Below, piece after piece: positions 176 to 64,000 of a stretch of DNA of 64,000 bases. This stretch comes from Escherichia phage vB_EcoM_TH18. Position 1 is the first letter of the stretch, and every line of letters starts with the position of its first letter. Below the pieces are notes generated by a model. It did no database searches. It had not been told where the DNA came from and worked only from the letters and a program-made list of their open reading frames with translations. Location: the sequence record ON075799; one strand, 5' to 3'. The position numbers were made by a program, and so were the translations under genes.

Positions 176-189
176 ATCTATATTAACAG

Positions 190-423: not shown

Positions 424-501
424 TGGTCTGTCCGGTTGGATTTGAACCAACGACCTGGTCATCCCAAGTGACCCGCGCTACCCAAGCTGCGCTACGGACA
501 G
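424..501 (-). tRNA. tRNA-Pro (anticodon UGG)
   Basis: Minus strand: acceptor ctgtccg/cggacag, D-stem gcgc/gcgc, anticodon stem ggtca/tgacc loop CTTGGGA, T-loop TTCAAAT, CCA encoded. Confidence 0.75.
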
Positions 502-585
502 AGAAATGTAGATTTTAATTGTCCCAGAATCTACTAACTGGTATCGCTGGCTAGGTGATATCTGTGACTTGATTAAGTCAAGAAT

Positions 586-677
586 TGGCGGTTCCTGAAG
601 GATTCGAACCTTCGGTGGGGAGATTCATTCCCAACGGCTTAACAGGCCGTCACCATCGACCACTCGGTCAAAGAACC
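586..677 (-). tRNA. tRNA, type II-like (long variable arm), anticodon loop CTGTTAA (GUU?); identity uncertain
   Basis: Minus strand: acceptor ggttctt/aggaacc, anticodon stem acggc/gccgt, extra stem-loop ggga-atgaatc-tccc, T-arm gaagg-TTCGAAT-ccttc, CCA encoded; 92 nt. Confidence 0.5.
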
Positions 678-686
678 TGAATATTT

Positions 687-763
687 TGGTGGATCTGGTT
701 GGGGTCGAACCAACAATCTCTCGATTAAAAGTCGAGTGACTTAAACCATTTGGCTACAAATCC
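687..763 (-). tRNA. tRNA-Lys (anticodon UUU)
   Basis: Minus strand: acceptor ggatttg/cagatcc, anticodon stem ctcga/tcgag loop CTTTTAA, T-arm gttgg-TTCGACC-ccaac, CCA encoded. Confidence 0.7.
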
Positions 764-780
764 GTTAAATTATCTTTAAA

Positions 781-810
781 ATAGCTAATTACTCGCACAT
801 AATTAGCTAT
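781..810. repeat. perfect 10-bp-stem hairpin (atagctaatt / aattagctat) in inter-tRNA spacer
   Basis: Exact inverted repeat with 10-nt loop read directly from sequence. Confidence 0.6.
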
Positions 811-996
811 ACGCAACAACTCTCCAAGGAGAGCACACTAATGATCGATTACGATTATATGACTAAATTTAGACCATCATAAGTGTTTGGCTTACGCCAG
901 TAAAGAGCGGACTGCTCTGGGGTATCGGTAAGATGGTTGCAGCCATCTACCGAAAAATCACACCAAGCAACTAAACAAGCTACATTAAAGATAACT

Positions 997-1085
997 TGGA
1001 GGAGGCTGACAGAATCGAACTGTCACCATATCTCTACAGCGGGACTGGGTTCAAACCAGCTTGTGCACCATGCACCCCAGCCTCC
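997..1085 (-). tRNA. tRNA-Ser (anticodon UGA)
   Basis: Minus strand: acceptor ggaggct/agcctcc, anticodon loop TTTGAAC, long variable arm, T-arm gacag-TTCGATT-ctgtc, CCA encoded; 89 nt. Confidence 0.7.
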
Positions 1086-1156
1086 AAAGATAGCCTCTGC
1101 CGAGGATATACACCCAACAAAGGAGGCGCTCAGGTCAGAAGAAATCTGAGCCTTAA

Positions 1157-1250
1157 TGGAGGAAGATGCCAGACTTGAACTGGCACACCCATTTCTGGGT
1201 TACTATCTCCTTAGCAGGGAGATCCCTTACCAAATTAGGGTTAATCTTCC
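1157..1250 (-). tRNA. tRNA-Ser (anticodon GCU)
   Basis: Minus strand: acceptor ggaagat/atcttcc, anticodon stem tctcc/ggaga loop CTGCTAA, long variable arm, T-arm gccag-TTCAAGT-ctggc, CCA encoded. Confidence 0.7.
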
Positions 1251-1271
1251 AATACCTTAGTAATTAAAAAC

Positions 1272-1361
1272 TGGTGGAGAAGGAGAGAATCGAACTCTCA
1301 AGCCGTTTTACCAGTCAGCACATTTCCAATGTGCTTTCGTCGCCAATCGATTTGCTTCTCC
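1272..1361 (-). tRNA. tRNA-Ser (anticodon GGA)
   Basis: Minus strand: acceptor ggagaag/cttctcc, anticodon stem gcaca/tgtgc loop TTGGAAA, long variable arm, T-arm gagag-TTCGATT-ctctc, CCA encoded. Confidence 0.65.
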
Positions 1362-1370
1362 GTTTTAACT

Positions 1371-1446
1371 TGGCAGGGGATGGTTGATTCGAACAACCGA
1401 TCACGGGGTCAAAGCCCGTTGCATTAGGCCACTATGCTAATCCCCT
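1371..1446 (-). tRNA. tRNA-Gln (anticodon UUG)
   Basis: Minus strand: acceptor aggggat/atcccct, D-stem gcat/atgc, anticodon stem acggg/cccgt loop CTTTGAC, T-loop TTCGAAT, CCA encoded. Confidence 0.7.
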
Positions 1447-1452
1447 TTTGCA

Positions 1453-1527
1453 CGAGAGTGAGGAATAGAACCTCTTAGTCACTGGTTTTGGAGGCCAGCC
1501 TTCACCCAGTGAAGTTACGCTACTCTC
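1453..1527 (-). tRNA. tRNA-Trp (anticodon CCA)
   Basis: Minus strand: anticodon loop CTCCAAA, T-arm with TTCTATT loop, acceptor gagagt/actctc; CCA not encoded. Confidence 0.6.
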
Positions 1528-1535
1528 ATTAAAAA

Positions 1536-2093
1536 CTATTTTCGAAAAGGACTTATGAAAAATGCCAACATCACTCTCTCTCTTGAAAAAGCTCTGTCTT
1601 CAGGAACCACACTCTTCAGTTTCCAACCGACATAAATTCGCCAGTAAAATTGTTTTCCAAACAATCTAAAAGACGGGACAAACGCGAATACACCCCACGC
1701 ATTGTCATTCCACATCAACAAATAGCCTTGTTGGTTATCCTCCACATCAGAGCTTACATGGAGGTTTCCTTTCCACTTTGTCACAGATGTGATTTCACGT
1801 CCAAGTACGTGATAGGAGAAATTGTAGGCTTTATTTCTCCACAACCAAGCAACTCGTTGTAGGTAAACACCAAAACTTCCTATTTTACGGACTTCTTCCC
1901 ATCTCTCTATGTGTCCTCTATCACCGTCTATAGGATTATCATATGTCTCCATCCACCTGAAAATATAAGGCAGATGCCCTGTCTTCTCATTATAGAACGG
2001 AACAACAAAAGGAGCCAGAATAACACAGAGAACCGACATAACTGGGTCAAGAGGTGCTAACAGGATCCACGATAAATATTTTAAGTATCTCAT
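1536..2093 (-). CDS. hypothetical protein (185 aa, aromatic-rich, hydrophobic N-terminus)
   Basis: Long ORF between tRNA sub-clusters; no recognisable motif. Confidence 0.5.
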   Translation of the reverse strand: MRYLKYLSWILLAPLDPVMSVLCVILAPFVVPFYNEKTGHLPYIFRWMETYDNPIDGDRGHIERWEEVRKIGSFGVYLQRVAWLWRNKAYNFSYHVLGREITSVTKWKGNLHVSSDVEDNQQGYLLMWNDNAWGVFAFVPSFRLFGKQFYWRIYVGWKLKSVVPEDRAFSRERVMLAFFISPFRK

Positions 2094-2320
2094 GCAGGAT
2101 CAAGCCTAGATATAATGTACTGGTTTAAATCTGAATATGGGAAGATACTTTCAAAGATAACCTGTTTAAATCTGAAGCCGCACAAACCGAAAAGTACCTT
2201 CTGACACTCACCAAAAGAGCAATCTTTACCAACTTTTATCACAACCGTATCGGCAATCTGCACACTTTCTATCTCTTTAGATTCATGATGCCGTACTATG
2301 ATTACTTTAGAAACCATCAT
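2090..2320 (-). CDS. hypothetical protein (76 aa)
   Basis: ORF whose stop overlaps the start of the downstream gene by 4 bp (translational coupling pattern). Confidence 0.4.
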   Translation of the reverse strand: MMVSKVIIVRHHESKEIESVQIADTVVIKVGKDCSFGECQKVLFGLCGFRFKQVIFESIFPYSDLNQYIISRLDPA

Positions 2321-2445
2321 ACTCGTCCATATTAAAGCCTTCTACTAAAGATAGTAGATGTCTAGGGTTGGACCGCAAACGCAACCCCATGGAATTTGTT
2401 ACGGTCTTCAGTTGACCCAAGCGGATTTCATTGACATCTTTTAAC

Positions 2446-2520
2446 TGGAGCATCCAGAGGGTATCGAACCCTCGACTTCAGCTTGGAAGGCTGTAGTTTT
2501 CCCAATTAAACTATGGATGC
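2446..2520 (-). tRNA. tRNA-Gly (anticodon UCC)
   Basis: Minus strand: acceptor gcatcca/tggatgc, D-stem gttt/aaac, anticodon loop CTTCCAA, T-arm gaggg-TTCGATA-ccctc, CCA encoded. Confidence 0.7.
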
Positions 2521-2525
2521 ATATT

Positions 2526-2601
2526 TGGTGGGAGTGGTAGGCTCTGCCCCTACGTCCTCTCGATTATCGGTCGAGCGATCTACTAACTGATCTACACTCC
2601 C
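2526..2601 (-). tRNA. tRNA-Ile-like (anticodon GAU), atypical T-loop
   Basis: Minus strand: acceptor gggagtg/cactccc, D-stem gatc/gatc, anticodon stem ctcga/tcgag loop CCGATAA, T-stem gtagg/cctac but loop GGCAGAG lacks TTC; CCA encoded. Confidence 0.5.
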
Positions 2602-2665
2602 AAACTGTACTGGCCCAACAACCACGATTGGAGGGTATCGTCACACATCAAAGCCAGTACAGTTT
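2602..2665. repeat. 13-bp-stem hairpin (aaactgtactggc / gccagtacagttt, 38-nt loop) filling the spacer between two tRNAs
   Basis: Exact inverted repeat read from sequence; no T-loop, so not a tRNA. Confidence 0.55.
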
Positions 2666-2669
2666 TAGT

Positions 2670-2759
2670 TGGTGTGCCGTGATAGAGTCGAACTACCCGA
2701 GTCCCTTTCGAGACAGGAGATTTACAGTCTCCCCCGCTACCCCTACGGTCTAACGACAC
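2670..2759 (-). tRNA. tRNA-Tyr (anticodon GUA), type II
   Basis: Minus strand: acceptor gtgtcgt/acggcac (one G-U), anticodon stem ggaga/tctcc loop CTGTAAA, long variable region, T-arm ggtag-TTCGACT-ctatc, CCA encoded; D-arm irregular. Confidence 0.6.
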
Positions 2760-2760
2760 A

Positions 2761-3108
2761 TTAACCTTGTTTGAATTGAACAATATCCGTCGAGAACGGT
2801 TTAGCTGCCTTAATAGGTGCTTTTTCTGAGTTATCTTTTTCGAGTAACTCTTCGTTTTCCTCATCAAAGTAATCAGAAAGCATCTGCTCACCTTTCTCAA
2901 TAACATAACGAGCTATATTTTCTCTGATATTGTCTTTTGTATTCACATTCTTCATCAAATCCCTAAGAACCTGATGAGCTTCAGGAATCATTGCAATCAG
3001 ATTCGTTTTTAAATCTAGGATATTTTTCTCTAACTGAATTGCATTAGATTCCTCTTTCAGAGGACGACCTTTTCCTCTTCTACGTTTTGTAAGCTGCTTA
3101 GTAGCCAT
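2761..3108 (-). CDS. hypothetical protein (115 aa from internal ATG; acidic C-terminal half)
   Basis: ORF 2761-3333 trimmed to the Met at 3108 because the upstream part overlaps tRNA-Cys. Confidence 0.45.
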   Translation of the reverse strand: MATKQLTKRRRGKGRPLKEESNAIQLEKNILDLKTNLIAMIPEAHQVLRDLMKNVNTKDNIRENIARYVIEKGEQMLSDYFDEENEELLEKDNSEKAPIKAAKPFSTDIVQFKQG

Positions 3109-3193
3109 TTTAAAACCCCACTTAATGATATTATCAAATAAAAACATATCTGTCAAGTGGTATTTTAACATATTTACCAAGAAATTGAAAGTT

Positions 3194-3270
3194 TGGAGCA
3201 CGGTGTCGGACTTGAACCGACATATATCTGTTTTGCAGACAGATCCGTAACCAAATTCCAGCAACCGTGC
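3194..3270 (-). tRNA. tRNA-Cys (anticodon GCA)
   Basis: Minus strand: acceptor gcacggt/accgtgc, anticodon stem tctgt/acaga loop CTGCAAA, T-arm with TTCAAGT loop, CCA encoded. Confidence 0.7.
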
Positions 3271-3356
3271 AATAAGTACCCCAGGTAGAGAACCTATAGA
3301 GTGGGTCTTACGAGCCGCGCTGACGATTCTCAAGTTGGGGTTAATCTGGTCGAGGA

Positions 3357-3433
3357 GACAGGATTCGAACCTGTGACCTACGGCTTAGAAGGCCGCTGCT
3401 CTATCCAACTGAGCTACACCCCGAAAATAAGAA
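3357..3433 (-). tRNA. tRNA-Arg (anticodon UCU)
   Basis: Minus strand: canonical D-arm tagctcagttggatagagc, anticodon stem gcggc/gccgt loop CTTCTAA, T-arm acagg-TTCGAAT-cctgt, CCA encoded. Confidence 0.7.
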
Positions 3434-3623
3434 TGCTTTATAGTGTATGGTTACTCAACCTCACTCCAACTTCCACAGTTGGTGCTCTACGAGCATGACT
3501 ACGTTTGAAATCAACGTTGCGCACCGATAGCTTTCTCACGCATTGTATGCCTCATTCCCAACAAATGCTGATCAGACATTTATATCGAATAATATAAGCT
3601 AATACACTATAAAACAAACTTGT

Positions 3624-3720
3624 GGCTGGGTGATGGAATCGAACCACCTATGTATTCAACGGCTTCCCCGTCTATTTTCAGGATTATAAATCCTCGCCCT
3701 TGCCAAAGGGCTTACCCAGC
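3624..3720 (-). tRNA. tRNA-like gene, unusually long (about 97 nt); anticodon loop TTTATAA (UAU?) with about 30-nt insertion before the T-arm
   Basis: Minus strand: acceptor gctgggt/acccagc, D-stem gccc/gggc, 4-bp anticodon stem agga/tcct, extra hairpin acgg-ggaag-ccgt, T-arm ggtgg-TTCGATT-ccatc; CCA not encoded. Confidence 0.4.
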
Positions 3721-3722
3721 AT

Positions 3723-3797
3723 TGGTGCTCGCAGCAGGTTTCGAACCTGCAACCCCCTGCTTACAAGGCAGGTGCTCTACCGTTGAGCTATACGAGC
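3723..3797 (-). tRNA. tRNA-Thr (anticodon UGU)
   Basis: Minus strand: acceptor gctcgta/tgcgagc, D-stem gctc/gagc, anticodon stem cctgc/gcagg loop CTTGTAA, T-arm gcagg-TTCGAAA-cctgc, CCA encoded. Confidence 0.75.
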
Positions 3798-4162
3798 AAT
3801 AAGACATTGCTTCCGATTAACAGCCTTGAGGCTTTACAGACCATATCTTGTGAGCCATAACCTGTGCCAAGGATTTCAGATGATAAACGAAATTTTATCT
3901 TTCAAGAGTCAACTTTCAAGTTTCATCTTTTACATTTAACCATTGACCTTTATTGTATGAACTTTTACTTAGTGGAAACAACAAGGCATCTTCGTGTGCC
4001 TCGCTGCATCTATGTCCTGTATTATCCTCATACATATACGATACATGGTGGGGGATATTTAACCTCCAACCCCCAGGAGGCAAGATGATGTAAACTTCGT
4101 TAATCAAAAGCAATGTTTTAAATTTCAAAACAAAGGAACGATAATGATATTATCAGAGCCTT

Positions 4163-4810
4163 TTAGAGAGAGTGCTCAATCTCAATTTCTGTCTTAGCGT
4201 TTGACTCAGACAACGCAAAATCAACGTTAGACAAGAAATCTTCAATCTCTTCTTCAAGAGAACGAATCTTAGAAGCCAGTTCAAGAGGATCCACAACCGA
4301 TGGTGTGTTCATCATTCGAATAGGAGCTTCCACAGTCTTAATCTGCTCTGCATCTGGCGCTTTATCACGTTGGATATATGGCGCTCTTGCATTTTCAAGT
4401 TTATCTTCCAGAGATTTTTCTTCTTTTGCCAGAAGAAGCTGTGCAGAAGCACGCTGTGCACAAAGTTTGTTTAACAACTCTTGTTTAAAGCAAATCGTCC
4501 GTTTGCGTTCGATTGCCTCAGCAACTGTCATAGACACATTACCAATTTTGACAATTGTCTCAGCATTAGACTTAACAATTTTTGCTTTCAGTTCATCACG
4601 CACTGCCAAGAGGTCTTGCAGACTTTGATAGTCGTTGATCGCAGATTTCTTAAAATCATCAACAGAGCCGATATAACCCGGAATCTTACAATTATTCTCA
4701 GTTCCTTTTGCAATCTTAATACAATCAAGATTGTAGATACGCTTATTGATCTTATCTTCAATTTTAGAGATAGAAGCAAGTGCACGAGTTACGGAAATCT
4801 TAGTAGACAT
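4163..4810 (-). CDS. hypothetical protein (215 aa, predicted coiled-coil, K/E-rich)
   Basis: Long ORF; composition only. Confidence 0.55.
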   Translation of the reverse strand: MSTKISVTRALASISKIEDKINKRIYNLDCIKIAKGTENNCKIPGYIGSVDDFKKSAINDYQSLQDLLAVRDELKAKIVKSNAETIVKIGNVSMTVAEAIERKRTICFKQELLNKLCAQRASAQLLLAKEEKSLEDKLENARAPYIQRDKAPDAEQIKTVEAPIRMMNTPSVVDPLELASKIRSLEEEIEDFLSNVDFALSESNAKTEIEIEHSL

Positions 4811-4883
4811 GCGATCTCTCCTATGTAAATCAGCTTTGATAAAGTAACTATCCAGAAAAACAAAAACTATGTCAAGAAAAATT

Positions 4884-5075
4884 TTAATCTTTTACAGCAT
4901 CTTTTATAGAATCACAAAGATCTTGAACAACATCAGATGTCGGTGACAAAATCATCTCGTCGGCTGCTGCTATAGCATCTGATGCTAAATCAACAAACGG
5001 AGTTGTTACCGCAGAAGTCACTTCAACAGCCGTTATTGTTACTTCGCTTGCAATCTTAAGCAAAGATCCTATCAT
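4884..5075 (-). CDS. hypothetical protein (63 aa)
   Basis: Small ORF downstream of the tRNA-Met gene. Confidence 0.3.
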   Translation of the reverse strand: MIGSLLKIASEVTITAVEVTSAVTTPFVDLASDAIAAADEMILSPTSDVVQDLCDSIKDAVKD

Positions 5076-5151
5076 AATCTCAACCCTCCTGAATATCCGT
5101 GATTCCCTTTATTTAACGACGCTGGCTCACGGTGGCACTCTCGTCAATAAA

Positions 5152-5475
5152 CTATTTTTTAGTTTTCTTACCGTTTTCTACAGAAATGCTTGTTTTCTGT
5201 TTCGCTTCTCGTTCGCGCTTTGTTTTCCCAGTGCGAATACGATATGAAGCAGAAATAACTTCACCACCAATGACACGAGACACAGATTCGTAATACATTT
5301 CAGTATTACCGTCTTCATCTTTGCGTTTTTTCAGAACTGCTACAGTTTGCGTTTTACCACCAAGGCGCACATCGTGCGGTGCAGAATGTGTCTGCGTGGA
5401 TTTTGATCCAAACTGAAAAGGTTGCTTTATCGCCTCGATAGCTGACACCTTTTTAGCAGACTGTTTCTTAGCCAT
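5152..5475 (-). CDS. hypothetical basic protein (107 aa from internal ATG, Lys-rich)
   Basis: Internal ATG at 5475 preceded by GGAGG; Lys-rich termini. Confidence 0.45.
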   Translation of the reverse strand: MAKKQSAKKVSAIEAIKQPFQFGSKSTQTHSAPHDVRLGGKTQTVAVLKKRKDEDGNTEMYYESVSRVIGGEVISASYRIRTGKTKREREAKQKTSISVENGKKTKK

Positions 5476-5527
5476 TAAGTTTTCTCCTCCGAAAACAATA
5501 AACATAGTTTATTTCGTGTGCCACATT

Positions 5528-5604
5528 TGGTGGCCCCTGCTGGACTTGAACCAGCGACCAAGCGATTATGAGTCACCTGCTCTATCCAACTGAGCTAAGG
5601 GGCC
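5528..5604 (-). tRNA. tRNA-Met (anticodon CAU; elongator-type or Ile2-type)
   Basis: Minus strand: acceptor ggcccct/aggggcc (G1-C72 paired), canonical D-arm, anticodon loop CTCATAA, T-arm gctgg-TTCAAGT-ccagc, CCA encoded. Confidence 0.7.
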
Positions 5605-5936
5605 GAATCTCTTAATATGAGATGATATTATCCTGTATGATCTACATTGTCAAGAGATATTTTAAAATTTTATACATCCCAGTTTTCTTCTTGATAACAA
5701 CCTTCCCCGAATCCAACTTCTTTTTCAAAATCAATACCTTTTTTCATACATTCCTCACATTAACAGATATTGTTTTCAAACTCAAAACGTAAAATACGAA
5801 CTCTGTCAATACACTGCTGTAATCTACAAAGCAACAACTCAACTTGTTTATGCGTCTCTTCAGTATACGTTTTGGTCATCTTGCTTTTCTCCGTGATCTT
5901 TTCATTGCAGCTTCTGCACGTCTTTGTTTACGATTT

Positions 5937-6185
5937 TTAGATGGTTGTTCTAAGGATCCTGATAACGTACTTTGTTGTGCTAATCCCTTCGATGGGGTAG
6001 AAATAATATAATCCCCCTTCTTCACCGAACGATGCAATATATTTCCAGGATTCAATTCCAAAACCAGTTGTAGAAAAAGCGACATCATCCGCTTCTTCAA
6101 GCGCATCATCATGTGTTTTATGGAAAGACTCATGTTCTACGTACTCCCCGTTATCAGACTTAAGAACCATTTTTAATTTAAACAT
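5937..6185 (-). CDS. hypothetical acidic protein (82 aa); overlaps an alternative-frame ORF 5876-6133
   Basis: Two overlapping minus-strand ORFs in different frames; the true product is unclear. Confidence 0.3.
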   Translation of the reverse strand: MFKLKMVLKSDNGEYVEHESFHKTHDDALEEADDVAFSTTGFGIESWKYIASFGEEGGLYYFYPIEGISTTKYVIRILRTTI

Positions 6186-6253
6186 AACAAATCACCACTA
6201 ATTTTATTTTTATCTTGTTATTAGATCTTATCAGTGGTGTTTATTTTTGTCAA

Positions 6254-6460
6254 TTAAACTATTCCAAAAGCCTTGACACCACGCTCGTATTCTGCTACTG
6301 CAAGCTCATGAGGAGAAAGGTCACATGAGGCATCCTTGCAAAGACCGACTTCGATGTAATGTTCTTCTAGTCCATCAAGGATATCTGGCTCCCACGCTTT
6401 TTTCATGTCTGGATGGACTGATGCACGATTTCTATCGTACTTCGCTACGAGATTTCTCAA
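6254..6460 (-). CDS. hypothetical protein (68 aa)
   Basis: Small ORF just downstream of the NAMPT gene on the same strand. Confidence 0.35.
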   Translation of the reverse strand: MRNLVAKYDRNRASVHPDMKKAWEPDILDGLEEHYIEVGLCKDASCDLSPHELAVAEYERGVKAFGIV

Positions 6461-6513
6461 AACATTCTCCTCAAAATAAAAACCCCTCCATGTGGAGGGG
6501 AATGATTATGGTG

Positions 6514-8229
6514 TTAAAGCTGTGATAAGGCTCTTTGGCGAATTTCTTCAAGATCCTCATCCACAAGCAGCTTACCATTAACAAAAACTGTTCTAAGCTC
6601 GTTATCATGGTCAGATACTTGGTTAATACCAAGATTATCTACCAGCTTCAACTCGCCATCATCACCACGAATAACTTTAACAAAACCTTTCGCAGATTTC
6701 TTCCCAAGATCAGTCTTAGGCTCTTTTACGACCATTACTTGTCTGCCATCAATCACAGCACCAGTAGCTTTTACAGCCATCCCAAGAGAATCACGGGTTG
6801 TATATTGCGTTGTATAAGACCCTACACCAAACACAATGTTACTGGAAGCAAACCCTCGTTCTTCAAGGCGCTCAAAGATCTCTTTAGCACGGGAGATTGT
6901 GATAGAGTCTCCGTAGATTAAACCAACATGGCTATCAAGAACTTTGTAACCCAAAGAGTTTACACTACCACCAAAGATTTCCCACAAGCATTGTACAGCA
7001 CCCTTAACTTCCTCTTTTGTCAGATAATTTGTAAATTCATCACCTGTCAAAGATTTCCAATCTACGAGGTTGCCTTCCGAATCTCGCATCCATGAAGTGT
7101 CTCTGGACATCTCGTATAAAGTGACATATTTGCCATTTTTAAACAGCACAGCATCCATGTCACAGCACTGCCCCGTTGCCCATTCTTCCTGAGAGCACAC
7201 GCGATAACCAGCAATGATGTGCTCTGGGATCCCACTGTCAGGTCGGAAGACCAGCTTGCCATCACGAGACATAATCTCATCTTTCAGGATTTTTGCTGCC
7301 TGTGTAATGATTGCCCAAAAATCATAGCTGTCAGCGACGTATGAAGCATAACCTGATGGGAAAATCTCTGTCACATAACGCTTTAAGAACTCAACTTCAG
7401 CACGAAAACGTGCTTCATCAAGCGGCATATCAGGATTTTCCTGCTGGATACGCTCAACAATAAAACCAATGTTCGTTGTCGCTACGCTATGCTCAGATGC
7501 GGGAATAGACCCAGCAACAAAGCGACCTTTCATGTTGTAATAGCGATTTGCGTAAACAATCGCTGGAATTGTATCTGTGCCCATTGAGCTAATCAGTTGC
7601 CCAAATTCGCTCTGTGCTGCGTCATGTGTTCCAGCTTCACCACGGTATGCAAAACAATGGTTCTGGAAAGGAACATGATCGTTGTTATCACATGTTTTCT
7701 TTGCCCACAGTTCTGATAGTTTACGGTATTGCCAGAAAGTCGTTGCCGTGGTAATTGTCTTCCAAGTCTCCGATGAGATCACGCTCTCAAGGAAGTTCGG
7801 CAGCCAGTAAAAATCAGGATGCGTGTTCTGAATCGTGAACATGGGAACCTGAACAGGAACAAGAGTTCCTTCAGGCAAAGCCCTAATTTCAATTGGGAGA
7901 TAACCAAGGTCATGCAATTTCTCAAAACCCCAAGTTTCAACAGCATCCTTCCCAATGCTCAAATCACAAATCTCTTTGTAATCCTGAATCGCCTTTTCTT
8001 TCGGTAAAGCGAAGAAATTATTATTAAACATGTCGATCAGGAACCACTTGATAAATCCCTGAAGACCTGCAAACATCACACGATGGTCATCATCTGCAAA
8101 GTGTACAAAGTGTTTCACATTGCGTGGGGTCATGTTGTCTTGAACAAACTGTGAACGTCTATCGTACATCGAGATGTGACTTGGTTTATAAAAATCTGCG
8201 AACAGCAATGGACTTTCTTTGTGAAGCAT
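6514..8229 (-). CDS. nadV: nicotinamide phosphoribosyltransferase (NAMPT/NadV-like)
   Basis: 571-aa ORF; remembered NAMPT-family signatures including the RPDSG motif and GSYT segment. Confidence 0.8.
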   Translation of the reverse strand: MLHKESPLLFADFYKPSHISMYDRRSQFVQDNMTPRNVKHFVHFADDDHRVMFAGLQGFIKWFLIDMFNNNFFALPKEKAIQDYKEICDLSIGKDAVETWGFEKLHDLGYLPIEIRALPEGTLVPVQVPMFTIQNTHPDFYWLPNFLESVISSETWKTITTATTFWQYRKLSELWAKKTCDNNDHVPFQNHCFAYRGEAGTHDAAQSEFGQLISSMGTDTIPAIVYANRYYNMKGRFVAGSIPASEHSVATTNIGFIVERIQQENPDMPLDEARFRAEVEFLKRYVTEIFPSGYASYVADSYDFWAIITQAAKILKDEIMSRDGKLVFRPDSGIPEHIIAGYRVCSQEEWATGQCCDMDAVLFKNGKYVTLYEMSRDTSWMRDSEGNLVDWKSLTGDEFTNYLTKEEVKGAVQCLWEIFGGSVNSLGYKVLDSHVGLIYGDSITISRAKEIFERLEERGFASSNIVFGVGSYTTQYTTRDSLGMAVKATGAVIDGRQVMVVKEPKTDLGKKSAKGFVKVIRGDDGELKLVDNLGINQVSDHDNELRTVFVNGKLLVDEDLEEIRQRALSQL

Positions 8230-8292
8230 GATCTCAACCCTCCAACCTAAAAGCGTATTTTTTCACTAAAACGTATCTTTGTCAAGATGTAA

Positions 8293-9102
8293 TTAAAAAT
8301 TTTCTGTCCAGTCGTAGTACGCATAGATTTCGTCAACGCCACCGTTGAGAATAAATTCTTTCCCACGAGAGAAAATCCCATGCGTGACATACAAGATAAC
8401 ACGTTTAGCACCAGCAGCTTTCAAGGCTTGAGCTAAGTTTGTAAACGTAAACCCACCATCGCAGATATCATCAACAATCAGGCACATCTTCCCATCGACA
8501 TCACCAAACACTGTTGTGCCTGTGATTGCCCCTGTTCCCACATCACGGATTTTACCAGCTTCAACCACAGATAGTTCCAAGGCATCAGCTACCTTCTGGG
8601 TCTTCTTGCGTGCACCTGCATCTGGAGCAACCAACACAAGCGATTCGTCCGTAAGCAGATCAAAATCAAACTTCATGTTCAAGAACAATTCAGTCTGAGA
8701 ACGAATTTTCACGTTATCAAGCAGTGCTGCGGATACGTCACTGTGTGGGTCATCGACGATGACTTTGTGGAAACCCAGCGAGTTAATCATTGTGGCAAAG
8801 ACTTTCACCGACAGAGCTTCACCAGGGTTCATAACTCGGTCTTGTCGAGCATACGGGATGTACGGCAGGTGTAAAACCTTTTCCACACCAACATCCAAAT
8901 TGCCAAGACGATTGACTGCATCAACAAGCAACGCAAGACACATCACATCTTGGGAGTGCTTAATGCGAGCGAAGATATCCACAAAACCAATCGAACCCTT
9001 AGGGATATAGTGCATATCGATCTTCACCTGCTCCTCACCACCACTGAAGGTAAAATGGTCAACTGGAACATGCAACTTGTTCAAACTCAAACGAATATTC
9101 AT
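8293..9102 (-). CDS. prs: ribose-phosphate pyrophosphokinase-like (PRPP synthetase)
   Basis: 269 aa; PRPP-binding loop VDDICDGGFTF (type I phosphoribosyltransferase fold); next to NAMPT. Confidence 0.75.
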   Translation of the reverse strand: MNIRLSLNKLHVPVDHFTFSGGEEQVKIDMHYIPKGSIGFVDIFARIKHSQDVMCLALLVDAVNRLGNLDVGVEKVLHLPYIPYARQDRVMNPGEALSVKVFATMINSLGFHKVIVDDPHSDVSAALLDNVKIRSQTELFLNMKFDFDLLTDESLVLVAPDAGARKKTQKVADALELSVVEAGKIRDVGTGAITGTTVFGDVDGKMCLIVDDICDGGFTFTNLAQALKAAGAKRVILYVTHGIFSRGKEFILNGGVDEIYAYYDWTENF

Positions 9103-9500
9103 GATTTATCTCCTCTAGCACGATTGACGATAATATAATTTCTTGGTTTCACGTTACCATCAGAATCCTGAAATCCTGATCTGACACGCCTGACATAACC
9201 AAAGCTCTCCATCCGAGACAGAAATTCAGACACTTTGGTTCGTGAGTTTTCGTTCCACCCCAACAGACCACACAAGGATTGCTGTGACGGAAAGAATACC
9301 AGTTCCCCACCCAAGGGGTTCCGACTCTTGAAATACTCGTATCTCCACAACAAGCGTATCAGTCTTTGCAGATCGCTTGGTGATAACCGTTCATCAAAAA
9401 CCCACTCTGTCGGCACAGCGATGTACGACCCAGCTTTCGGATTTACATGGAAACCCCCAACATTCGATTTCAAGGCAAACTCCGGTGTGTAATTCAACAC
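9099..9500 (-). CDS. hypothetical protein (133 aa), first gene of the leftward operon
   Basis: ORF whose stop overlaps the prs start by 4 bp; sits immediately left of the AT-rich control region. Confidence 0.5.
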   Translation of the reverse strand: MLNYTPEFALKSNVGGFHVNPKAGSYIAVPTEWVFDERLSPSDLQRLIRLLWRYEYFKSRNPLGGELVFFPSQQSLCGLLGWNENSRTKVSEFLSRMESFGYVRRVRSGFQDSDGNVKPRNYIIVNRARGDKS

Positions 9501-9540
9501 CGAGAATGCTACTCATAACACCACACAATGTCAACCCCTC

Positions 9541-9859
9541 CCATATGTCCCCATTTCAGGGACATTATGATCTAATATAATATATATTATATAATATAAT
9601 TTAATATAATACTACGTATTATATATATTATAATATATATATATAATTTATATAAAATACACTAAGTCTTGAAGAATGTCAAGACTTGATTTTAAATATT
9701 TTTGTTGATATGATTCGATTGAGTCGAATCGTATGGTTCGATGATTTCGAATCATAGAGTTCATGTTGTTTTGCCTGAAATCGTGAGTCGATGAGACTCT
9801 TCAGGCAATACGTGAGTGTGTAAGATGCTCACTGCGCTGATAGCTTGTGATCATCTAAC
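9541..9859. promoter_or_regulatory. divergent intergenic control region: about 80-bp near-pure A/T tract (9585-9660) plus short palindromes and TCGA-containing repeats
   Basis: Composition and repeats read directly; lies between the leftward (tRNA/NAD) and rightward (small-gene) transcription units. Confidence 0.5.
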
Positions 9860-9978
9860 CCTCATGAGCCATTCTGAGATAAACCCACATCAACAAACCC
9901 CACAGGTTTGTCTCTGTGTGTTAATCTCAATCATGGATTCGGGTTGTCACAAGTCACTATGTGACTCTGTGTGGGGAT
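9860..9978. repeat. 119-bp inverted repeat, copy A (identical to the reverse complement of 63882-64000)
   Basis: Base-by-base comparison of the reverse complement of the window end with 9860-9978: 119/119 identical. Confidence 0.9.
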
Positions 9979-10094
9979 TTCGAATGTGTACCGGAGCATG
10001 GCGCACAGGACTGGTTCATCTGTCCGTCTCAACTGGGGCGCGGCGGGGGTTAAGGTTTAGTTTTACGTTTTGTGTGGGTGTGGAGGAGAGTTTT

Positions 10095-10373
10095 ATGGCC
10101 TACGATGAAAATTCTATCCGGGTGCTGTCACCTGATGATATCAAACAACGATTTGACTGGGTACGCATCGGGGATTTGGTTCACGAATATAACTTACCTG
10201 TGGATTGGGTCAGACGTGGCTTTGAAGCGTGCTGGAGGTTAAACATCGAGCCTGATTATTTTATCAACAAGTACATCCTCAAGCAGGATGTTGAACCTGT
10301 ACCTGATTTCGAGGTTGTTTTTAAAGAGATTGTTATGGAGTCTCGATTCAAGGATCAGGTATGCTCCAGGTAG
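10095..10373 (+). CDS. hypothetical protein (92 aa)
   Basis: ATG at 10095 preceded by GGAGGAGAG; the upstream part of ORF 9816-10373 is the repeated non-coding sequence. Confidence 0.45.
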   Translation: MAYDENSIRVLSPDDIKQRFDWVRIGDLVHEYNLPVDWVRRGFEACWRLNIEPDYFINKYILKQDVEPVPDFEVVFKEIVMESRFKDQVCSR

Positions 10374-10491
10374 TCTCAAAAACGCACCTGTGAATCAGAT
10401 TTGCAAATGTAGTCCACAGATAGGTAAAAACATCAACGCAAATCGATTCTCCGCTGGATCTACAGAGTAAATTTTCAATTTTCGGAGAAAA

Positions 10492-10866
10492 ATGATGAAA
10501 CGTACCATGACAGACAAAGAGCGCGAAATTGCCCTCCAGTTAGCAAGAGAAAAAAGAGAGCAACAAAAGCGAGAATGGGCTGCGCTGGCAGAAGCGGGAA
10601 AAATACGCCAACATTTCGCTGACGCTAATCACTGGGCAAGGCTCCGTAGTCAATACGGGATTACATCTCCGTACAAATTAGCTCCGGCAGAAAGTGATCA
10701 TGGCATGAAAATTCTTAGACGAACGATCAGACTGACCGGAGGATTCGAGTGGTTCAATGAGTCTTTCGGTATGGACATCAAGCAGTTTGTCAGAATGAAC
10801 CCTACGTGGTCTGCATACGCTATTCAGGGGGTAATCCTTGAAGAGTGGGATGATTATCAGAATTGA
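10492..10866 (+). CDS. hypothetical protein (124 aa)
   Basis: ORF with GGAGA ribosome-binding site; followed by hairpin and T-run. Confidence 0.5.
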   Translation: MMKRTMTDKEREIALQLAREKREQQKREWAALAEAGKIRQHFADANHWARLRSQYGITSPYKLAPAESDHGMKILRRTIRLTGGFEWFNESFGMDIKQFVRMNPTWSAYAIQGVILEEWDDYQN

Positions 10867-10908
10867 TTTTTGTTGTGTTTCTGGTAATCAACTGGTATGT
10901 TTATTACA

Positions 10909-10944
10909 GGGAGTGATAACCACTCCCGTGTTACTTGTTTTATA
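10909..10944 (+). terminator. hairpin gggagtg-ataac-cactccc followed by T-rich tract
   Basis: Stem-loop and downstream T-rich sequence read from the sequence. Confidence 0.45.
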
Positions 10945-10959
10945 CAGGAGTATTAATAT

Positions 10960-11583
10960 ATGTCTTGGCCTTTTTTGATTTATCTTATTGATGTTCTTAG
11001 CACAGACGGGAAGTATGAAGGTTGGGGATTCTTGTTGTTTCTGTGTGTTATTGTATACATGCTGATGCGTATTCTTCCAAAGATCCTCGAAGAACCTAAG
11101 CTGGATATCTATCCAGGACAAAACCTTGTTTTAGCACAAGACTGGTCACGATTTAAAGCCGGAGATGTTCTTGTTGTGAAGGATACTGCGGGTGGTGATG
11201 TTCTTCTTCGCCACGGGGAGGAATCACTTGGTTCTTGGGTGAGTAAGAGCATTTTACGAAAAGTGTGTAAACTTGATGAAAAACAAGGATATATCCCACA
11301 GCAAGATGCGATGGAAACACCGCGAAAGTTAACTGTGATTGCTATGGTTGTCTGTGTGATGGGTATTCTATACGCCAACTTCATGCCGCAGAAAGAGACT
11401 TCTTACAAGATGCTTGCTGCGTATGTTGGTCAAAACATTGTAGAATCTCCAAGGACTCAACAACTTGCGGATAGCACAATCAAGTATCTGGATGCCCAAA
11501 TCAAGAAGTACACTCAAGAATTAGGTGATACTTCAGGAGTGGCGAGTAAGGATTCTAAGCCTGGTGAGAAGGTGAAAGAGTGA
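10960..11583 (+). CDS. membrane protein (207 aa, two hydrophobic segments)
   Basis: AGGAG ribosome-binding site; hydrophobic stretches at the N-terminus and mid-protein. Confidence 0.55.
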   Translation: MSWPFLIYLIDVLSTDGKYEGWGFLLFLCVIVYMLMRILPKILEEPKLDIYPGQNLVLAQDWSRFKAGDVLVVKDTAGGDVLLRHGEESLGSWVSKSILRKVCKLDEKQGYIPQQDAMETPRKLTVIAMVVCVMGILYANFMPQKETSYKMLAAYVGQNIVESPRTQQLADSTIKYLDAQIKKYTQELGDTSGVASKDSKPGEKVKE

Positions 11584-11945
11584 TGGGAAAGTCATTTGAA
11601 ACAAAACGAATAGCGTTGGACTTTGATGATACTTTCACGCTAGAGCCTGAGAGATGGTCACAATTTGTTGCTCTATTTGCAGCAAAGGATTCAGGTTGGT
11701 GTGTTAAATTTGTTACTTATCGCTTCGATTCAGATGATAACTCTGATATCCAGTTTTGGGCTGAAAAACTAGGTATCGGAATAATTTATTGCAATGGTGT
11801 CCAGAAAGCACAAGTTTGTGCGGAACTTGGCTGGATCCCAGATGTGTGGATAGACGATTTTCCTGTTCTCATCCCTGTGAAACAACAACTACAGGGTATG
11901 CTTTTAGGGATAGAAAATAACGAAGAAAAACATAATGTTAAGTAG
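11580..11945 (+). CDS. HAD-superfamily hydrolase-like small protein (121 aa)
   Basis: DxDxT motif (ALDFDDTFT) and late WIDD motif; 4-bp overlap with the upstream gene. Confidence 0.45.
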   Translation: MMGKSFETKRIALDFDDTFTLEPERWSQFVALFAAKDSGWCVKFVTYRFDSDDNSDIQFWAEKLGIGIIYCNGVQKAQVCAELGWIPDVWIDDFPVLIPVKQQLQGMLLGIENNEEKHNVK

Positions 11946-15649: not shown

Positions 15650-15703
15650 AAGTAGTTGACTTTTAGTTATGCCGTGATAGAATACACGGCATAGATAAGA
15701 GAA
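15650..15703 (+). promoter_or_regulatory. 54-bp repeated promoter/operator element, copy 1 (TTGACT ... TAGAAT with the -10 inside an 8-bp-stem palindrome)
   Basis: Direct repeat of 19883-19936 with one mismatch. Confidence 0.6.
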
Positions 15704-63451: not shown

Positions 63452-63889
63452 TCACTGTCGCTCTAACAAATCTTCTGCTGGATAAGCATACAGCATGTAT
63501 TCCCAACCACGATGATAGTGTCTGTGTTGCCAGTTGATTAATTTTAGACACACAATGTTCACCACGTTCCTGTCCCCATGAATAAAAACACAAGTCTCAA
63601 GGATTGACTTTCCAAACTCAACATGGCTGTCAAGATACAGTTTTGTGTTGTATCTTTTTTCAGCATCCAGCATGATCTGTTTCAGTGCCTGAAATGCCTC
63701 ACAACACACAGATTTTTCATCAGAAATCATTTTGATATTCAAGCATTCACCCCCACCCAGGCAACCACGTAAATCGTGTCTGATCACCACAACATAATCG
63801 GTTTGAAACAAACCTGTTTGACACACAAAACACATCGTCGTAGTGTCATGCCCAAACACAGACAGACATGATACGACGAAGATCCCCAC
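63452..63889 (-). CDS. hypothetical protein (145 aa or shorter); first gene after the right-hand inverted repeat
   Basis: ORF begins at a GTG inside the repeat; the true start is probably an internal ATG. Confidence 0.35.
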   Translation of the reverse strand: MGIFVVSCLSVFGHDTTTMCFVCQTGLFQTDYVVVIRHDLRGCLGGGECLNIKMISDEKSVCCEAFQALKQIMLDAEKRYNTKLYLDSHVEFGKSILETCVFIHGDRNVVNIVCLKLINWQHRHYHRGWEYMLYAYPAEDLLERQ

Positions 63890-64000
63890 ACAGAGTCACA
63901 TAGTGACTTGTGACAACCCGAATCCATGATTGAGATTAACACACAGAGACAAACCTGTGGGGTTTGTTGATGTGGGTTTATCTCAGAATGGCTCATGAGG
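63882..64000. repeat. 119-bp inverted repeat, copy B (reverse complement of 9860-9978); truncated by the window edge
   Basis: 119/119 identity after reverse complementing. Confidence 0.9.

What the first reader, a model, noticed from the sequence alone, without database searches (positions are those of the whole stretch)
9541..9859. Extremely AT-rich divergent control region between the tRNA/NAD operon and the small-gene module
About 80 bp of near-pure A/T (9585-9660) is followed by a palindrome (agtcttga-agaatg-tcaagact) and clustered TTCGAT / TCGAAT repeats. It sits exactly where leftward and rightward transcription diverge. This combination is typical of strong early promoters with upstream elements, or of a DNA-unwinding element at an origin.
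Basis: partly seen in the sequence, partly recalled or inferred. Interest (0 to 1): 0.5.

Follow-up and report, generated by a model that had tools for sequence, protein, structure and literature searches.

The report
Duplicated inverted early-control cassette, split by join
The AT-rich stretch is real, but it is the middle of a ~550-bp non-coding promoter/regulatory cassette present twice, in opposite orientations, in an rV5-like coliphage; the window cuts it with an artificial scaffold join that deletes 106 bp and probably puts the wrong genes next to it.

Summary
The window is the tail of two GenBank scaffolds of Escherichia phage 18-1-2 (Avunavirus, Vequintavirinae) joined end to end. The join, 9565|9566, lies inside the finding and omits 106 bp.

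The features described are real. The AT tract is the most extreme in the window. The palindrome is at 9664-9687. The TTCGAT repeats are two tandem 7-5-7 inverted repeats.

They belong to a ~547-bp non-coding cassette, E (9538-9978 plus the missing bases). A second, inverted copy lies ~54 kb away; its right arm is 63882-64000. This repeat explains why about 30 independent short-read assemblies break here.

E is orthologous to the divergent region between the tRNA/NAD operon and the nucleotide-metabolism block in related genera. It holds conserved back-to-back sigma70 promoters, an operator-like pair over the rightward start, a strongly structured 258-nt leader, an AT tract with clustered GATCT 13-mers, and two dyads that co-vary with the adjacent winged-helix gene.

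Synteny and one 138-kb scaffold indicate that the true right-hand neighbour of the tRNA/NAD operon is the nucleotide-metabolism block, not the small-gene module.

Best reading: a duplicated early-transcription control cassette. A replication-origin role for the AT tract is plausible but unproven.

The parts
9506..9534 (-). P_U1: sigma70-type promoter of the tRNA/NAD (U1) operon (TTGACA 9534-9529, 17 nt, TAGCAT 9511-9506). It lies just outside the repeat.
   Evidence: Promoter scans and coordinates. A counterpart TTGACA-17-TACATT follows the dyads in GEC_vB_MG. Consensus match only; no transcription start site has been mapped.
9538..9978 (+). Cassette E, copy A as present in the window: a ~547-bp non-coding repeat unit, here lacking 106 bp at the join.
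   Evidence: The left boundary is defined by two different unique flanks joined to the same CTCCCATATG.... The right boundary is defined by two different flanks after ...GTGTGGGGAT. Full-length contiguous versions exist in Av-05, a 138-kb scaffold and an 83-kb scaffold.
9545..9565 (.). Dyad 1 (ATGTCCC-cattTca-GGGACAT), the first of two tandem GC-core dyads about 25 bp apart. Dyad 2 (TGTCCCC-gtttt-GGGGACA) falls in the missing 106 bp. Putative binding sites of the adjacent type-A winged-helix protein.
   Evidence: Tandem ~25-bp repeats occupy the same position in GEC_vB_MG, PVP-SE1, L024 and L029. They co-vary 6/6 against 6/6 with the type of wHTH gene. In L029 the dyad symmetry is weak but the direct repeat is kept, which favours protein sites over terminators.
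9565..9566 (.). Artificial scaffold join (end of OK136180.1 | start of OK136181.1); 106 bp of real sequence are absent.
   Evidence: exact identity, and 64000-9565 = 54435. The missing sequence is seen in Av-05, 24-2-1, the start of 18-1-2 scaffold 1, and ENA scaffolds.
9566..9662 (.). The part of the AT tract retained in the window (7% G+C). The full tract is about 190 bp, with four GATC sites (GATCTATTwAAT-type 13-mers) and two or three copies of the 6-3-6 motif TAATACtacGTATTA.
   Evidence: (composition and stability rank). GATC enrichment in the tract across relatives is 1-4 observed against 0.14-0.3 expected.
9664..9687 (.). 9-6-9 palindrome AAGTCTTGA-agaatg-TCAAGACTT. It carries the -35 of P_L and abuts the -35 of P_R, and it also scores as a weak terminator on both strands.
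   Evidence: The right half, ATGTCAAG, is conserved in relatives, where it pairs with a downstream TTGACAT instead.
9654..9682 (-). P_L: leftward sigma70-type promoter (TTGACA 9682-9677, 17 nt, TATTTT 9659-9654) with an A-rich UP-like stretch at 9683-9705. Its transcript would start in the AT tract.
   Evidence: Counterpart TTGACA-17-CATACT in the Seunavirus relatives GEC_vB_MG and EspYZU15; VIK251 keeps only the TTGACA hexamer. Inferred; not mapped.
9686..9714 (+). P_R: rightward sigma70-type promoter with extended -10 (TTGATT, 17 nt, TGaTATGAT). Predicted start about 9721.
   Evidence: The block is conserved in three genera. It is the only strong + strand promoter before 14221, and in the other copy the only - strand one before 62720.
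9712..9753 (.). Two tandem 7-5-7 inverted repeats (O1 9712-9730, O2 9735-9753). They are operator-like: O1 overlaps the -10 and +1 of P_R. As RNA they could instead form stem-loops.
   Evidence: only two matches in the window; 0/100 shuffles with two or more. (fold -22.6 kcal/mol, z = -4.8). Identical in Av-05 and three metagenome versions.
9721..9978 (+). Shared, non-coding, highly structured leader (right arm), including hairpins at 9773-9806 and 9812-9832 and a long imperfect hairpin at about 9843-9954.
   Evidence: RNA MFE -95.3 against -68.2 +/- 4.3 kcal/mol for shuffles, z = -6.2. A 2-bp indel between strains rules out a conserved reading frame. No Rfam match. No covariation is available.
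63882..64000 (-). Right arm of cassette E, copy B (inverted), cut by the end of scaffold 2. It leads into the nucleotide-metabolism block U4.
   Evidence: 100% reverse-complement of 9860-9978. The rest of copy B is seen at the start of scaffold 1. It is read contiguously next to U4 in metagenome contig OVXI01000030.1 and in the 138-kb scaffold.
9099..9500 (-). First gene of U1: a small winged-helix DNA-binding protein (type A), the candidate binder of the dyads.

Best explanation
The flagged stretch is the core of a ~547-bp non-coding early-transcription control cassette (E) of an Avunavirus (rV5-like) coliphage.

**Layout, left to right:**
- two tandem GC-core dyads, inferred to be binding sites of the small winged-helix protein encoded next door;
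- a ~190-bp AT tract studded with GATC(T) 13-mers;
- two back-to-back host-sigma70 promoters whose -35 hexamers sit in and beside a 9-6-9 palindrome;
- two tandem 7-5-7 operator-like inverted repeats covering the rightward transcription start;
- a 258-nt strongly folded untranslated leader.

**Two copies.** The cassette occurs twice in the ~134-kb genome, in inverted orientation about 54 kb apart.
- P_R of each copy drives a different gene block: U4 (phosphoesterase, RNA ligase, Sir2, DNA ligase, ribonucleotide reductases and others) and U3 (dozens of small genes of unknown function).
- The ancestral copy also faces the tRNA/NAD operon (U1), which has its own promoter just outside the repeat.
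- The other copy sits downstream of a short unit (U2). There its dyads and palindrome may end incoming transcription before P_R restarts it.

**Shown:** the sequence features, the duplication, the orthology of the promoters with those of relatives, and the unusual RNA folding energy.

**Inferred:** promoter activity, which proteins bind the dyads and operators, the role of the leader (processing, stability or antitermination), and early timing.

The window misrepresents the locus. It lacks 106 bp at an artificial scaffold join and most likely has scaffold 2 in the orientation opposite to the collinear genome.
For: - **Window identity and the join:**
- **Missing 106 bp:**
- **Inverted duplication:** a perfect 119-nt inverted arm at the window end. 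Four distinct unique/E junctions are seen. The E core is read contiguously next to U4 in an independent 40-kb metagenome contig and in a 138-kb scaffold. An 83-kb scaffold stops exactly at E's right boundary. Twenty-eight further contigs start inside the right arm just upstream of U3, and two E. coli draft assemblies break or mis-scaffold there.
- **Orthology and promoters:** the P_R block is conserved in Seunavirus and Mydovirus, the P_L -35 in both, and the full P_L in Seunavirus. 'ACAATACTAAC', tandem ~25-bp repeats and GATCT 13-mers are shared with several relatives. No alternative strong promoter precedes the first genes of U3 or U4. Vequintavirinae early genes are reported to use sigma70-like promoters with UP elements (PMC7344957; PMC3606486).
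- **Operators:**
- **Structured leader:**. **Non-coding:** a 2-bp indel.
- **wHTH/site co-variation:**
- **Synteny for U1|U4 and U2->U3:**
Against: - No transcription data exist for any Avunavirus. All promoters are consensus matches supported only by conservation.
- P_R has a mediocre -35 (4/6).
- A 190-bp AT tract with conserved GATC 13-mers is far more than a promoter needs, and this model leaves it without a specific role.
- The RNA structure has no covariation support; only three nearly identical sequences are available.
- No assembly reads contiguously through copy B (U2-E-U3).
- Binding of the winged-helix protein to the dyads rests on co-variation alone.
Confidence: 0.7

Rival explanations
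1. The AT tract is the unwinding element of a replication origin, possibly in addition to the promoter role. The adjacent small winged-helix protein would bind the tandem dyads as an initiator or origin-marking protein. Transcription from P_L into the tract, or DnaA-ATP or SeqA acting on the AGATCT/GATCT 13-mers, would help open it. The phage would then carry two such origins in inverted orientation.
For: - The tract has the lowest duplex stability in 64 kb.
- GATC sites are enriched 10-20-fold in the tract in every relative examined. They are often tandem GATCT + 8 A/T 13-mers at 13-nt spacing, like the E. coli oriC 13-mers (the oriC comparison is from my own knowledge).
- P_L fires into the tract, the layout of the T7 primary origin and T4 oriF/oriG (own knowledge).
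- The neighbouring gene product matches PHROG 'replication initiation protein' families: type B at E = 7e-36 plus lambda O-like families, type A at E = 6.5e-4.
- Gene type and adjacent tandem sites are swapped together, 6/6 against 6/6, as with initiator/iteron pairs.
- The phage encodes a DNA methyltransferase.
- No origin is known for rV5-like phages (PMC3606486).
Against: - No DnaA R-box cluster.
- Only two copies of each candidate site.
- The protein is only 105-141 aa, a bare wHTH with no effector domain. The Pfam matches are generic regulators plus 'wHTH-PRTase associated', which fits a regulator of the adjacent PRPP-synthetase/NAMPT operon.
- No PDB sequence match.
- A separate, conserved ~1.8-2.5-kb non-coding region at the U3/U4 convergence tolerates no transposon insertions in Bas54 and is an equally good origin candidate.
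- In metagenome contig OVXI01000030.1 the copy next to U4 lacks the GATC cluster and the dyads.
Confidence: 0.22
2. The site is a physical genome end or packaging (pac) site, and the contig breaks reflect real DNA termini.
For: All assemblies of this phage group end in or beside the element. Clustered GATC hexamers in an AT-rich context recall the P1 pac site (own knowledge).
Against: - The breaks occur at both copies and expose four unique/repeat junctions, which is the signature of a collapsed repeat and not of an end.
- Several assemblies read straight through.
- rV5 and Certrevirus genomes are reported as circularly permuted, with headful packaging and no fixed ends (PMC3606486; PMC7344957).
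Confidence: 0.04
3. The AT-rich 'feature' is an artefact created by concatenating two scaffold ends of low-complexity sequence.
For: The join lies inside the finding and 106 bp are missing. The AT tract varies between assemblies.
Against: The 97 bp of the tract in the window lie wholly within one scaffold. The full tract is contiguous in Av-05, in two ENA scaffolds and partly in OVXI01000030.1. AT tracts at the orthologous site occur in every relative checked.
Confidence: 0.02

Closest known systems
Sigma70-like early promoters of Vequintavirinae (rV5: bidirectional promoters between divergent units; Certrevirus CB7/CR3: AAAA-N3-4-TGTTGAC-N17-19-TATAAT at 13-21 sites)
   Same: Host-type -35/-10 hexamers with a 17-nt spacer and an A-rich upstream stretch (for P_L), placed at the head of blocks of small early genes and nucleotide-metabolism genes. 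The window holds many more such promoters.
   Different: Here the promoter pair is embedded in a 547-bp cassette with operators, a 258-nt structured leader, a 190-bp AT tract and dyads, and the whole cassette is duplicated in inverted orientation. The papers I read (PMC3606486, PMC7344957, PMC4463512) report nothing like this.
Lambda/HK022 early control: PL and PR, each followed by a cis-acting leader RNA element (nutL/nutR, putL/putR) and, for N, an RNase III-processed leader
   Same: Two copies of the same promoter-proximal non-coding element, in opposite orientations, each at the head of a long early transcription unit. The leader is long and strongly folded. (The comparison is from my own knowledge.)
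   Different: No boxA/boxB or put-like sequence, and no Rfam match at E <= 1. The copies are about 54 kb apart instead of flanking a repressor gene. The function of the leader is untested.
Iteron-type plasmid origins (P1 oriR, F oriS) and E. coli oriC
   Same: An AT-rich region with GATC-containing 13-mer-like repeats beside tandem protein-binding repeats that lie in front of the gene for a winged-helix protein. (The comparison is from my own knowledge.)
   Different: Only two repeats. There are no DnaA R boxes. The protein is a single short wHTH, not a two-domain Rep. No replication evidence exists.
Genomes with a segment bounded by inverted repeats that can flip by homologous recombination (herpes simplex virus U_S with oriS between divergent immediate-early promoters inside the repeat; halovirus phiH L segment; plastid IRs)
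   Same: Two identical inverted copies of a control region bound a large segment (about 54 kb, roughly 40% of the genome). Either orientation keeps every transcription unit behind a P_R copy.
   Different: Inversion has not been observed here. The one trustworthy through-assembly shows a single orientation. The opposite orientation appears only in the chimeric 36-bp-read Av-05 record and in the arbitrary scaffold order of the window.

Membership tests
Sigma70-dependent phage early promoter | -35 and -10 hexamers close to TTGACA/TATAAT with a 16-18 nt spacer | tested here: met
   P_L 10/12. P_R 9/12 plus an extended -10 TG. P_U1 10/12.
Sigma70-dependent phage early promoter | Conserved at the orthologous position in related phages | tested here: met
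   The block ATGTCAAG-TTGAYA-17-TATGAT/TAGAAT aligns in Av-05, GEC_vB_MG, EspYZU15 and VIK251. It is visible in further IMG/VR relatives.
Sigma70-dependent phage early promoter | Mapped transcription start and early timing | not testable with these tools
   I found no transcriptome or TSS data for Avunavirus.
UP element (the AT tract as the promoter's upstream element) | A/T-rich sequence at -40 to -60 of the promoter it serves | tested here: not met
   For P_R, -36 to -57 is the palindrome. The AT tract lies at about -60 to -250 of P_R and in the transcribed region of P_L. Only a short A-rich stretch (9683-9705) fits an UP element, and that is for P_L.
oriC / iteron-type replication origin | AT-rich DNA-unwinding element with 13-mer-type repeats | tested here: met
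   Lowest stability in the window. GATCT 13-mers are conserved across relatives.
oriC / iteron-type replication origin | Cluster of DnaA boxes (TTWTNCACA) | tested here: not met
   There is one 1-mismatch site in E, and the locus-wide count equals the shuffle expectation.
oriC / iteron-type replication origin | Three or more iterons bound by an adjacent initiator gene product | tested here: inconclusive
   Two dyads and two 7-5-7 repeats. The adjacent wHTH shows PHROG 'replication initiation protein' similarity (7e-36 for type B, 6.5e-4 for type A) but only sub-threshold generic wHTH matches in Pfam. Gene and sites co-vary.
oriC / iteron-type replication origin | Replication initiates there | not testable with these tools
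   This needs marker-frequency or 2D-gel data.
T7/T4-type transcription-activated origin | A promoter firing into an adjacent AT-rich region | tested here: met
   The predicted P_L start (~9647) lies inside the tract and points leftward through it. This shows geometry only.
Intrinsic (rho-independent) terminator (palindrome 9664-9687) | G+C-rich stem-loop followed by a U run | tested here: inconclusive
   The scan flags it on both strands (9-10 pairs, only 3 G-C pairs, T-rich tails). Fold energy is -11.5 and -10.2 kcal/mol. The stem is weak, and it overlaps the P_L -35.
Lambda nut / HK022 put antitermination RNA | BoxA/boxB or put stem-loop sequence and structure | tested here: not met
   No Rfam family matches E at E <= 1 apart from a chance miRNA hit. 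I saw no boxA-like motif.
Invertible segment bounded by inverted repeats | Two inverted copies of a long, identical repeat | tested here: met
Invertible segment bounded by inverted repeats | Both orientations present in the DNA population | tested here: inconclusive
   U1-E-U4 appears in the 138-kb scaffold. U1-E-U3 appears only in the chimeric Av-05 assembly built from 36-bp reads. Metagenome contig OVXI01000030.1 has a codirectional gene upstream of E-U4.
Transposable element / MITE | Terminal inverted repeats and target-site duplication | tested here: not met
   By eye, the ends (CTCCCATATG... / ...GTGTGGGGAT) are not inverted repeats of each other, and the four flanks share no duplication.

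The most novel reading that the evidence does not exclude
The cassette is a combined origin-promoter module. The AT tract with GATCT 13-mers is the long-sought replication origin of PVP-SE1/Av-05-type Vequintavirinae, licensed by the adjacent small initiator-like winged-helix protein. In Avunavirus it has been duplicated in inverted orientation, so the phage has two origins, and homologous recombination between the 0.55-kb copies flips a 54-kb segment (about 40% of the genome). Virions would then carry two genome isomers, as in herpes simplex virus.
Probability: 0.12. Interest if true: 0.8.

Novelty: new variant of a known kind. Interest (0 to 1): 0.5.

Why it matters
**Practical consequences**
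- This repeat explains why every short-read assembly of this phage group falls into pieces of about 79 kb and about 54 kb. That covers three GenBank phages, two E. coli draft genomes and dozens of metagenome contigs.
- The genus reference genome, Av-05 (NC_025830), is a chimera with a T4-like phage.
- Scaffold order in the deposited records, and therefore in this window, should not be trusted. Gene-neighbourhood inferences across position 9565|9566 are unsafe.

**Biological consequences**
- It defines a compact, conserved control module for an understudied subfamily of therapeutic-candidate phages: back-to-back promoters, operators, a structured leader, and a winged-helix protein with cognate sites.
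- It yields a concrete, testable origin candidate for a group in which no origin has been found.
- It raises the possibility of large-scale genome isomerisation in a lytic myovirus.

Tried and rejected
- **Rfam scan of the whole element:** only a chance miRNA hit.
- **blastn 'distant' search with the intergenic region:** nothing outside Avunavirus, so the comparisons had to go through flanking proteins.
- **Bas54/Bas50 ~2-kb 'no transposon insertion' region as a homologue of this site:** rejected. It lies between convergent small-gene units, and its counterpart in the window is at about 22.9-24.7 kb.
- **Av-05 as a trustworthy contiguous reference:** rejected for adjacency. It was built from 36-bp reads, and the record becomes phiC120-like T4-type DNA after about 103.1 kb. 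Its sequence across the missing 106 bp is nevertheless corroborated by 24-2-1, 18-1-2 and an ENA scaffold.
- **Coding potential of the right arm:** the ORF 9816-10373 is an in-frame upstream extension of the real 92-aa gene. I rejected it because Av-05 and the metagenome versions carry a 2-bp indel.
- **DnaA boxes:** no enrichment.
- **Covariation for the leader structure:** too few substitutions.
- **PDB sequence searches with profiles of both wHTH types:** nothing significant.
- **Search for a long-read-resolved copy:** no match in complete E. coli genomes, and only an unrelated 188-bp fragment in plasmids.
- **Exact-protein look-ups to find a contig crossing copy B:** every contig stops in the right arm.
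- **Single-protein scan of IMG/VR:** returned only Av-05. An alignment query was needed.
- **PVP-SE1 paper (PMC3194984):** not held in the library.

Full report
**What the window is.** A megablast of 8300-11600 found 100% matches to Escherichia phage 18-1-2 (Avunavirus, Vequintavirinae). These matches stop or start at window 9565/9566. Window 1-9565 is identical to the end of scaffold 1 (OK136180.1, 79,447 bp). Window 9566-64000 is exactly the whole of scaffold 2 (OK136181.1, 54,435 bp). The window is therefore a butt-joined pair of scaffolds, and the join lies inside the finding. The sister phages 24-2-1 and 19-1-2 also break here, at slightly different bases.

**The observation.** All three features are present.
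- The stretch 9585-9660 has 5.3% G+C. The 80-bp window 9577-9656 has 3.7%, against 39.9 +/- 6.0% for the window as a whole. This is the most AT-rich and least stable duplex segment in 64 kb, and it holds the two longest pure A/T runs.
- The palindrome is AAGTCTTGA-agaatg-TCAAGACTT at 9664-9687. Palindromes of this size are common in this genome.
- The TTCGAT/TCGAAT cluster consists of two tandem 7-5-7 inverted repeats at 9712-9730 and 9735-9753. They are unique in the window, and 0 of 100 shuffles gave two matches.

Alignment with contiguous relatives shows that 106 bp are missing at the join. The missing piece holds a second GC-core dyad and about 85 bp more of AT-rich DNA with three further GATC sites. 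That sequence is corroborated by the 24-2-1 scaffold end, by the start of 18-1-2 scaffold 1, and by an 83-kb ENA scaffold.

**The region is one copy of an inverted repeat.**
- The last 119 nt of the window (63882-64000) are the perfect reverse complement of 9860-9978.
- The first 99 nt of scaffold 1 are the reverse complement of the left end of the element.
- Four different unique flanks are therefore joined to the same ~547-bp unit, which I call E (window 9538-9978 plus the 106 missing bases):
  - U1: winged-helix gene, PRPP synthetase, NAMPT, tRNAs.
  - U2: a short unit at the start of scaffold 1.
  - U3: small genes, starting at ATG 10095.
  - U4: 145-aa protein, phosphoesterase, RNA ligase, Sir2, DNA ligase, ribonucleotide reductases and others.
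- U1 and U2 join the left end of E. U3 and U4 join the right end.

Independent assemblies agree.
- A 40-kb metagenome contig reads from U4 through the right arm, the 7-5-7 repeats, the palindrome and into an AT tract.
- A 138-kb ENA scaffold reads U1-E-U4. Its 83-kb sister scaffold stops exactly at E's right boundary.
- Two E. coli draft assemblies break or mis-scaffold in E.
- Twenty-eight further contigs, from 14 or more sequencing runs, all begin inside the right arm, 146-177 nt before the first U3 gene.

The only record that seems to lack the second copy is Av-05. It was assembled from 36-bp reads, and it turns into T4-like DNA (100% identical to phiC120) about 300 nt after a solitary first dyad. 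It is a chimera.

**Which genes really flank it.**
- In GEC_vB_MG, EspYZU15 (both Seunavirus) and VIK251 (Mydovirus), the PRPP-synthetase/NAMPT/tRNA operon is divergent from the phosphoesterase-RNA ligase-Sir2-DNA ligase block, that is U1|U4.
- In GEC_vB_MG the U2 homologues run codirectionally into the U3 homologues.
- The collinear layout is therefore U1-E-U4 and U2-E-U3. This is what the 138-kb scaffold shows for the first junction.
- The window's 'tRNA/NAD operon | small-gene module' adjacency reflects how two scaffolds were concatenated. It is supported only by the unreliable Av-05 record.
- Both orientations would leave every transcription unit intact. Inversion by recombination between the 0.55-kb copies is possible, but it has not been observed.

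**Anatomy and comparison.** E is orthologous to the relatives' U1|U4 divergent region.
- The block ATGTCAAG-TTGAYA-17-TATGAT/TAGAAT aligns in all four genomes compared. In E this is P_R: TTGATT 9686-9691, then TGaTATGAT 9706-9714.
- The conserved ATGTCAAG is, on the other strand, the -35 TTGACA of a leftward promoter P_L (9682-9677, with -10 TATTTT 9659-9654). The Seunavirus relatives have TTGACA-17-CATACT there; VIK251 keeps the TTGACA hexamer but not that -10.
- P_R is the only strong same-strand promoter ahead of the first 4 kb of U3. In the other copy it is the only one ahead of the first two U4 genes.
- U1 has its own promoter, P_U1, just outside the repeat (9534-9506).
- These promoters fit published descriptions of sigma70-like early promoters in this subfamily.
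- Relatives have a short leader of about 30 nt after P_R. E instead has the two operator-like repeats over the -10/+1 region and a 258-nt leader.
- As RNA, that leader folds far better than shuffled controls: -95.3 against -68.2 +/- 4.3 kcal/mol, z = -6.2. It contains a long imperfect hairpin at about 9843-9954.
- A 2-bp indel between strains excludes a conserved reading frame.
- No Rfam family matches, and there is too little variation for covariation analysis.

**The AT tract.** Every relative examined has an AT tract at this position (85-141 bp, 21-25% G+C). Each carries 1-4 GATC sites, where 0.14-0.21 are expected from composition. These are often tandem 13-mers, such as GATCTAAAAACAA|GATCTTTTAGTAT|GATCTATATATTC. 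E has four (GATCTATTwAAT type) plus two or three copies of TAATACtacGTATTA.

The tract lies in the transcribed region of P_L and far upstream of P_R, so it is not placed like an UP element. Its conserved GATC 13-mers and extreme instability resemble an unwinding element. That resemblance to oriC is from my own knowledge and was not tested.

**The neighbouring protein.**
- The first U1 gene encodes a small winged-helix protein.
- Relatives carry one of two types. Type A, as in the window, comes with two GC-core dyads about 25 bp apart. Type B is unrelated or only remotely related, and comes with two CTCAAATTGA-type repeats 23 bp apart.
- The split is 6 loci against 6, with no exceptions. This co-variation argues that the protein binds those sites.
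- PHROG labels the matching families 'replication initiation protein': E = 7e-36 for type B plus lambda O-like families, and E = 6.5e-4 for type A.
- Pfam gives only sub-threshold generic wHTH hits, including a class associated with phosphoribosyltransferase genes.
- PDB sequence searches gave nothing.
- There is no DnaA-box cluster.
- The evidence therefore cannot separate an autoregulator of the tRNA/NAD operon from an origin-binding protein.

**Verdict.** The locus is best described as a duplicated, inverted early-control cassette that the window both truncates and probably misplaces. An origin function for the AT tract remains a live but minority hypothesis; I put it at about 0.2. A second candidate for an essential cis-acting site exists at about 22.9-24.7 kb. 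Fixed genome ends and a pure artefact are effectively excluded. I rate it a new variant of a known kind, with moderate interest.

Noticed in passing
window 22860-24700: A ~1.8-kb stretch with no ORF longer than 71 aa lies at the convergence of the small-gene unit (U3) and the nucleotide-metabolism unit (U4). It is syntenic with the ~2.5-kb non-coding gap of Vequintavirus Bas50 (MZ501060.1 92426-94929). That gap corresponds to the Bas54 intergenic region where a Tn-seq study found no insertions. The two share a collinear 33-nt match at 91% identity (24126-24158). Rfam gave only chance hits. It is a candidate essential cis-acting element (origin, pac site or ncRNA).
   Followed up: partly
L009 (NC_025830.1 100500-107500); record positions from ~103145: The RefSeq genome of the genus type phage, Av-05, is chimeric. 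About 300 nt after the solitary first dyad downstream of Av05_00171, the record becomes T4-like DNA that is 100% identical to phage phiC120. It also lacks the RNA-ligase end of U4. It was assembled from 36-bp reads.
   Followed up: yes
window 6514-9102 (- strand): The 'PRPP synthetase' (8293-9102) and 'NAMPT' (6514-8229) pair next to the element resembles the phage NAD+ reconstitution pathway (Adps + Namat). One database record labels the homologue ADP-ribose pyrophosphate synthetase. The attribution to that pathway is from my own memory and was not tested.
   Followed up: no
window 10376-10563: The stretch between the first and second U3 genes is 89% identical to an unannotated segment of an IncF plasmid (CP057076.1 80981-81168) and of a 3.7-kb plasmid (CP057083.1). 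I have no explanation.
   Followed up: partly
window 15656-15683 and 19890-19917: There are two identical promoter-plus-palindrome modules in the small-gene unit. Each has TTGACT-16-TAGAAT with an extended -10, and each has the palindrome ATGCCGTG-N8-CACGGCAT starting 13 nt after the start of the -35 (15669 and 19903). These look like a second class of regulated early promoter.
   Followed up: no
L008 (OK136180.1) 2499-3296, - strand: The first gene of unit U2 is annotated 'anti-termination protein'. It matches PHROG families for the Srd anti-sigma factor and sigma70 decoy (E = 6e-15 and 1e-18) as well as an HNH endonuclease family. This may bear on how sigma70-dependent early promoters such as P_R are later shut off.
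   Followed up: no
window 9501-9534: Other Avunavirus sequences have an open N-terminal extension of the winged-helix gene (141-aa annotation). In the window a TGG-to-TGA difference closes it. The conserved start is probably further downstream, at a TTG near 9475 preceded by GGAG. That position also fits the predicted P_U1 start near 9499.
   Followed up: partly
L017 (GCA_002972075.1 JZOQ01000111.1) and L019 (GCA_002972255.1 JZNW01000083.1): Two NCBI genome assemblies (GCA_002972075.1, GCA_002972255.1; organism not checked, apparently bacterial drafts) contain contigs of this phage that are nearly identical to the window. This suggests phage carried in, or contaminating, the sequenced cultures. 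One scaffold wrongly links an E-U4 stub to E-U3 through a run of N.
   Followed up: partly
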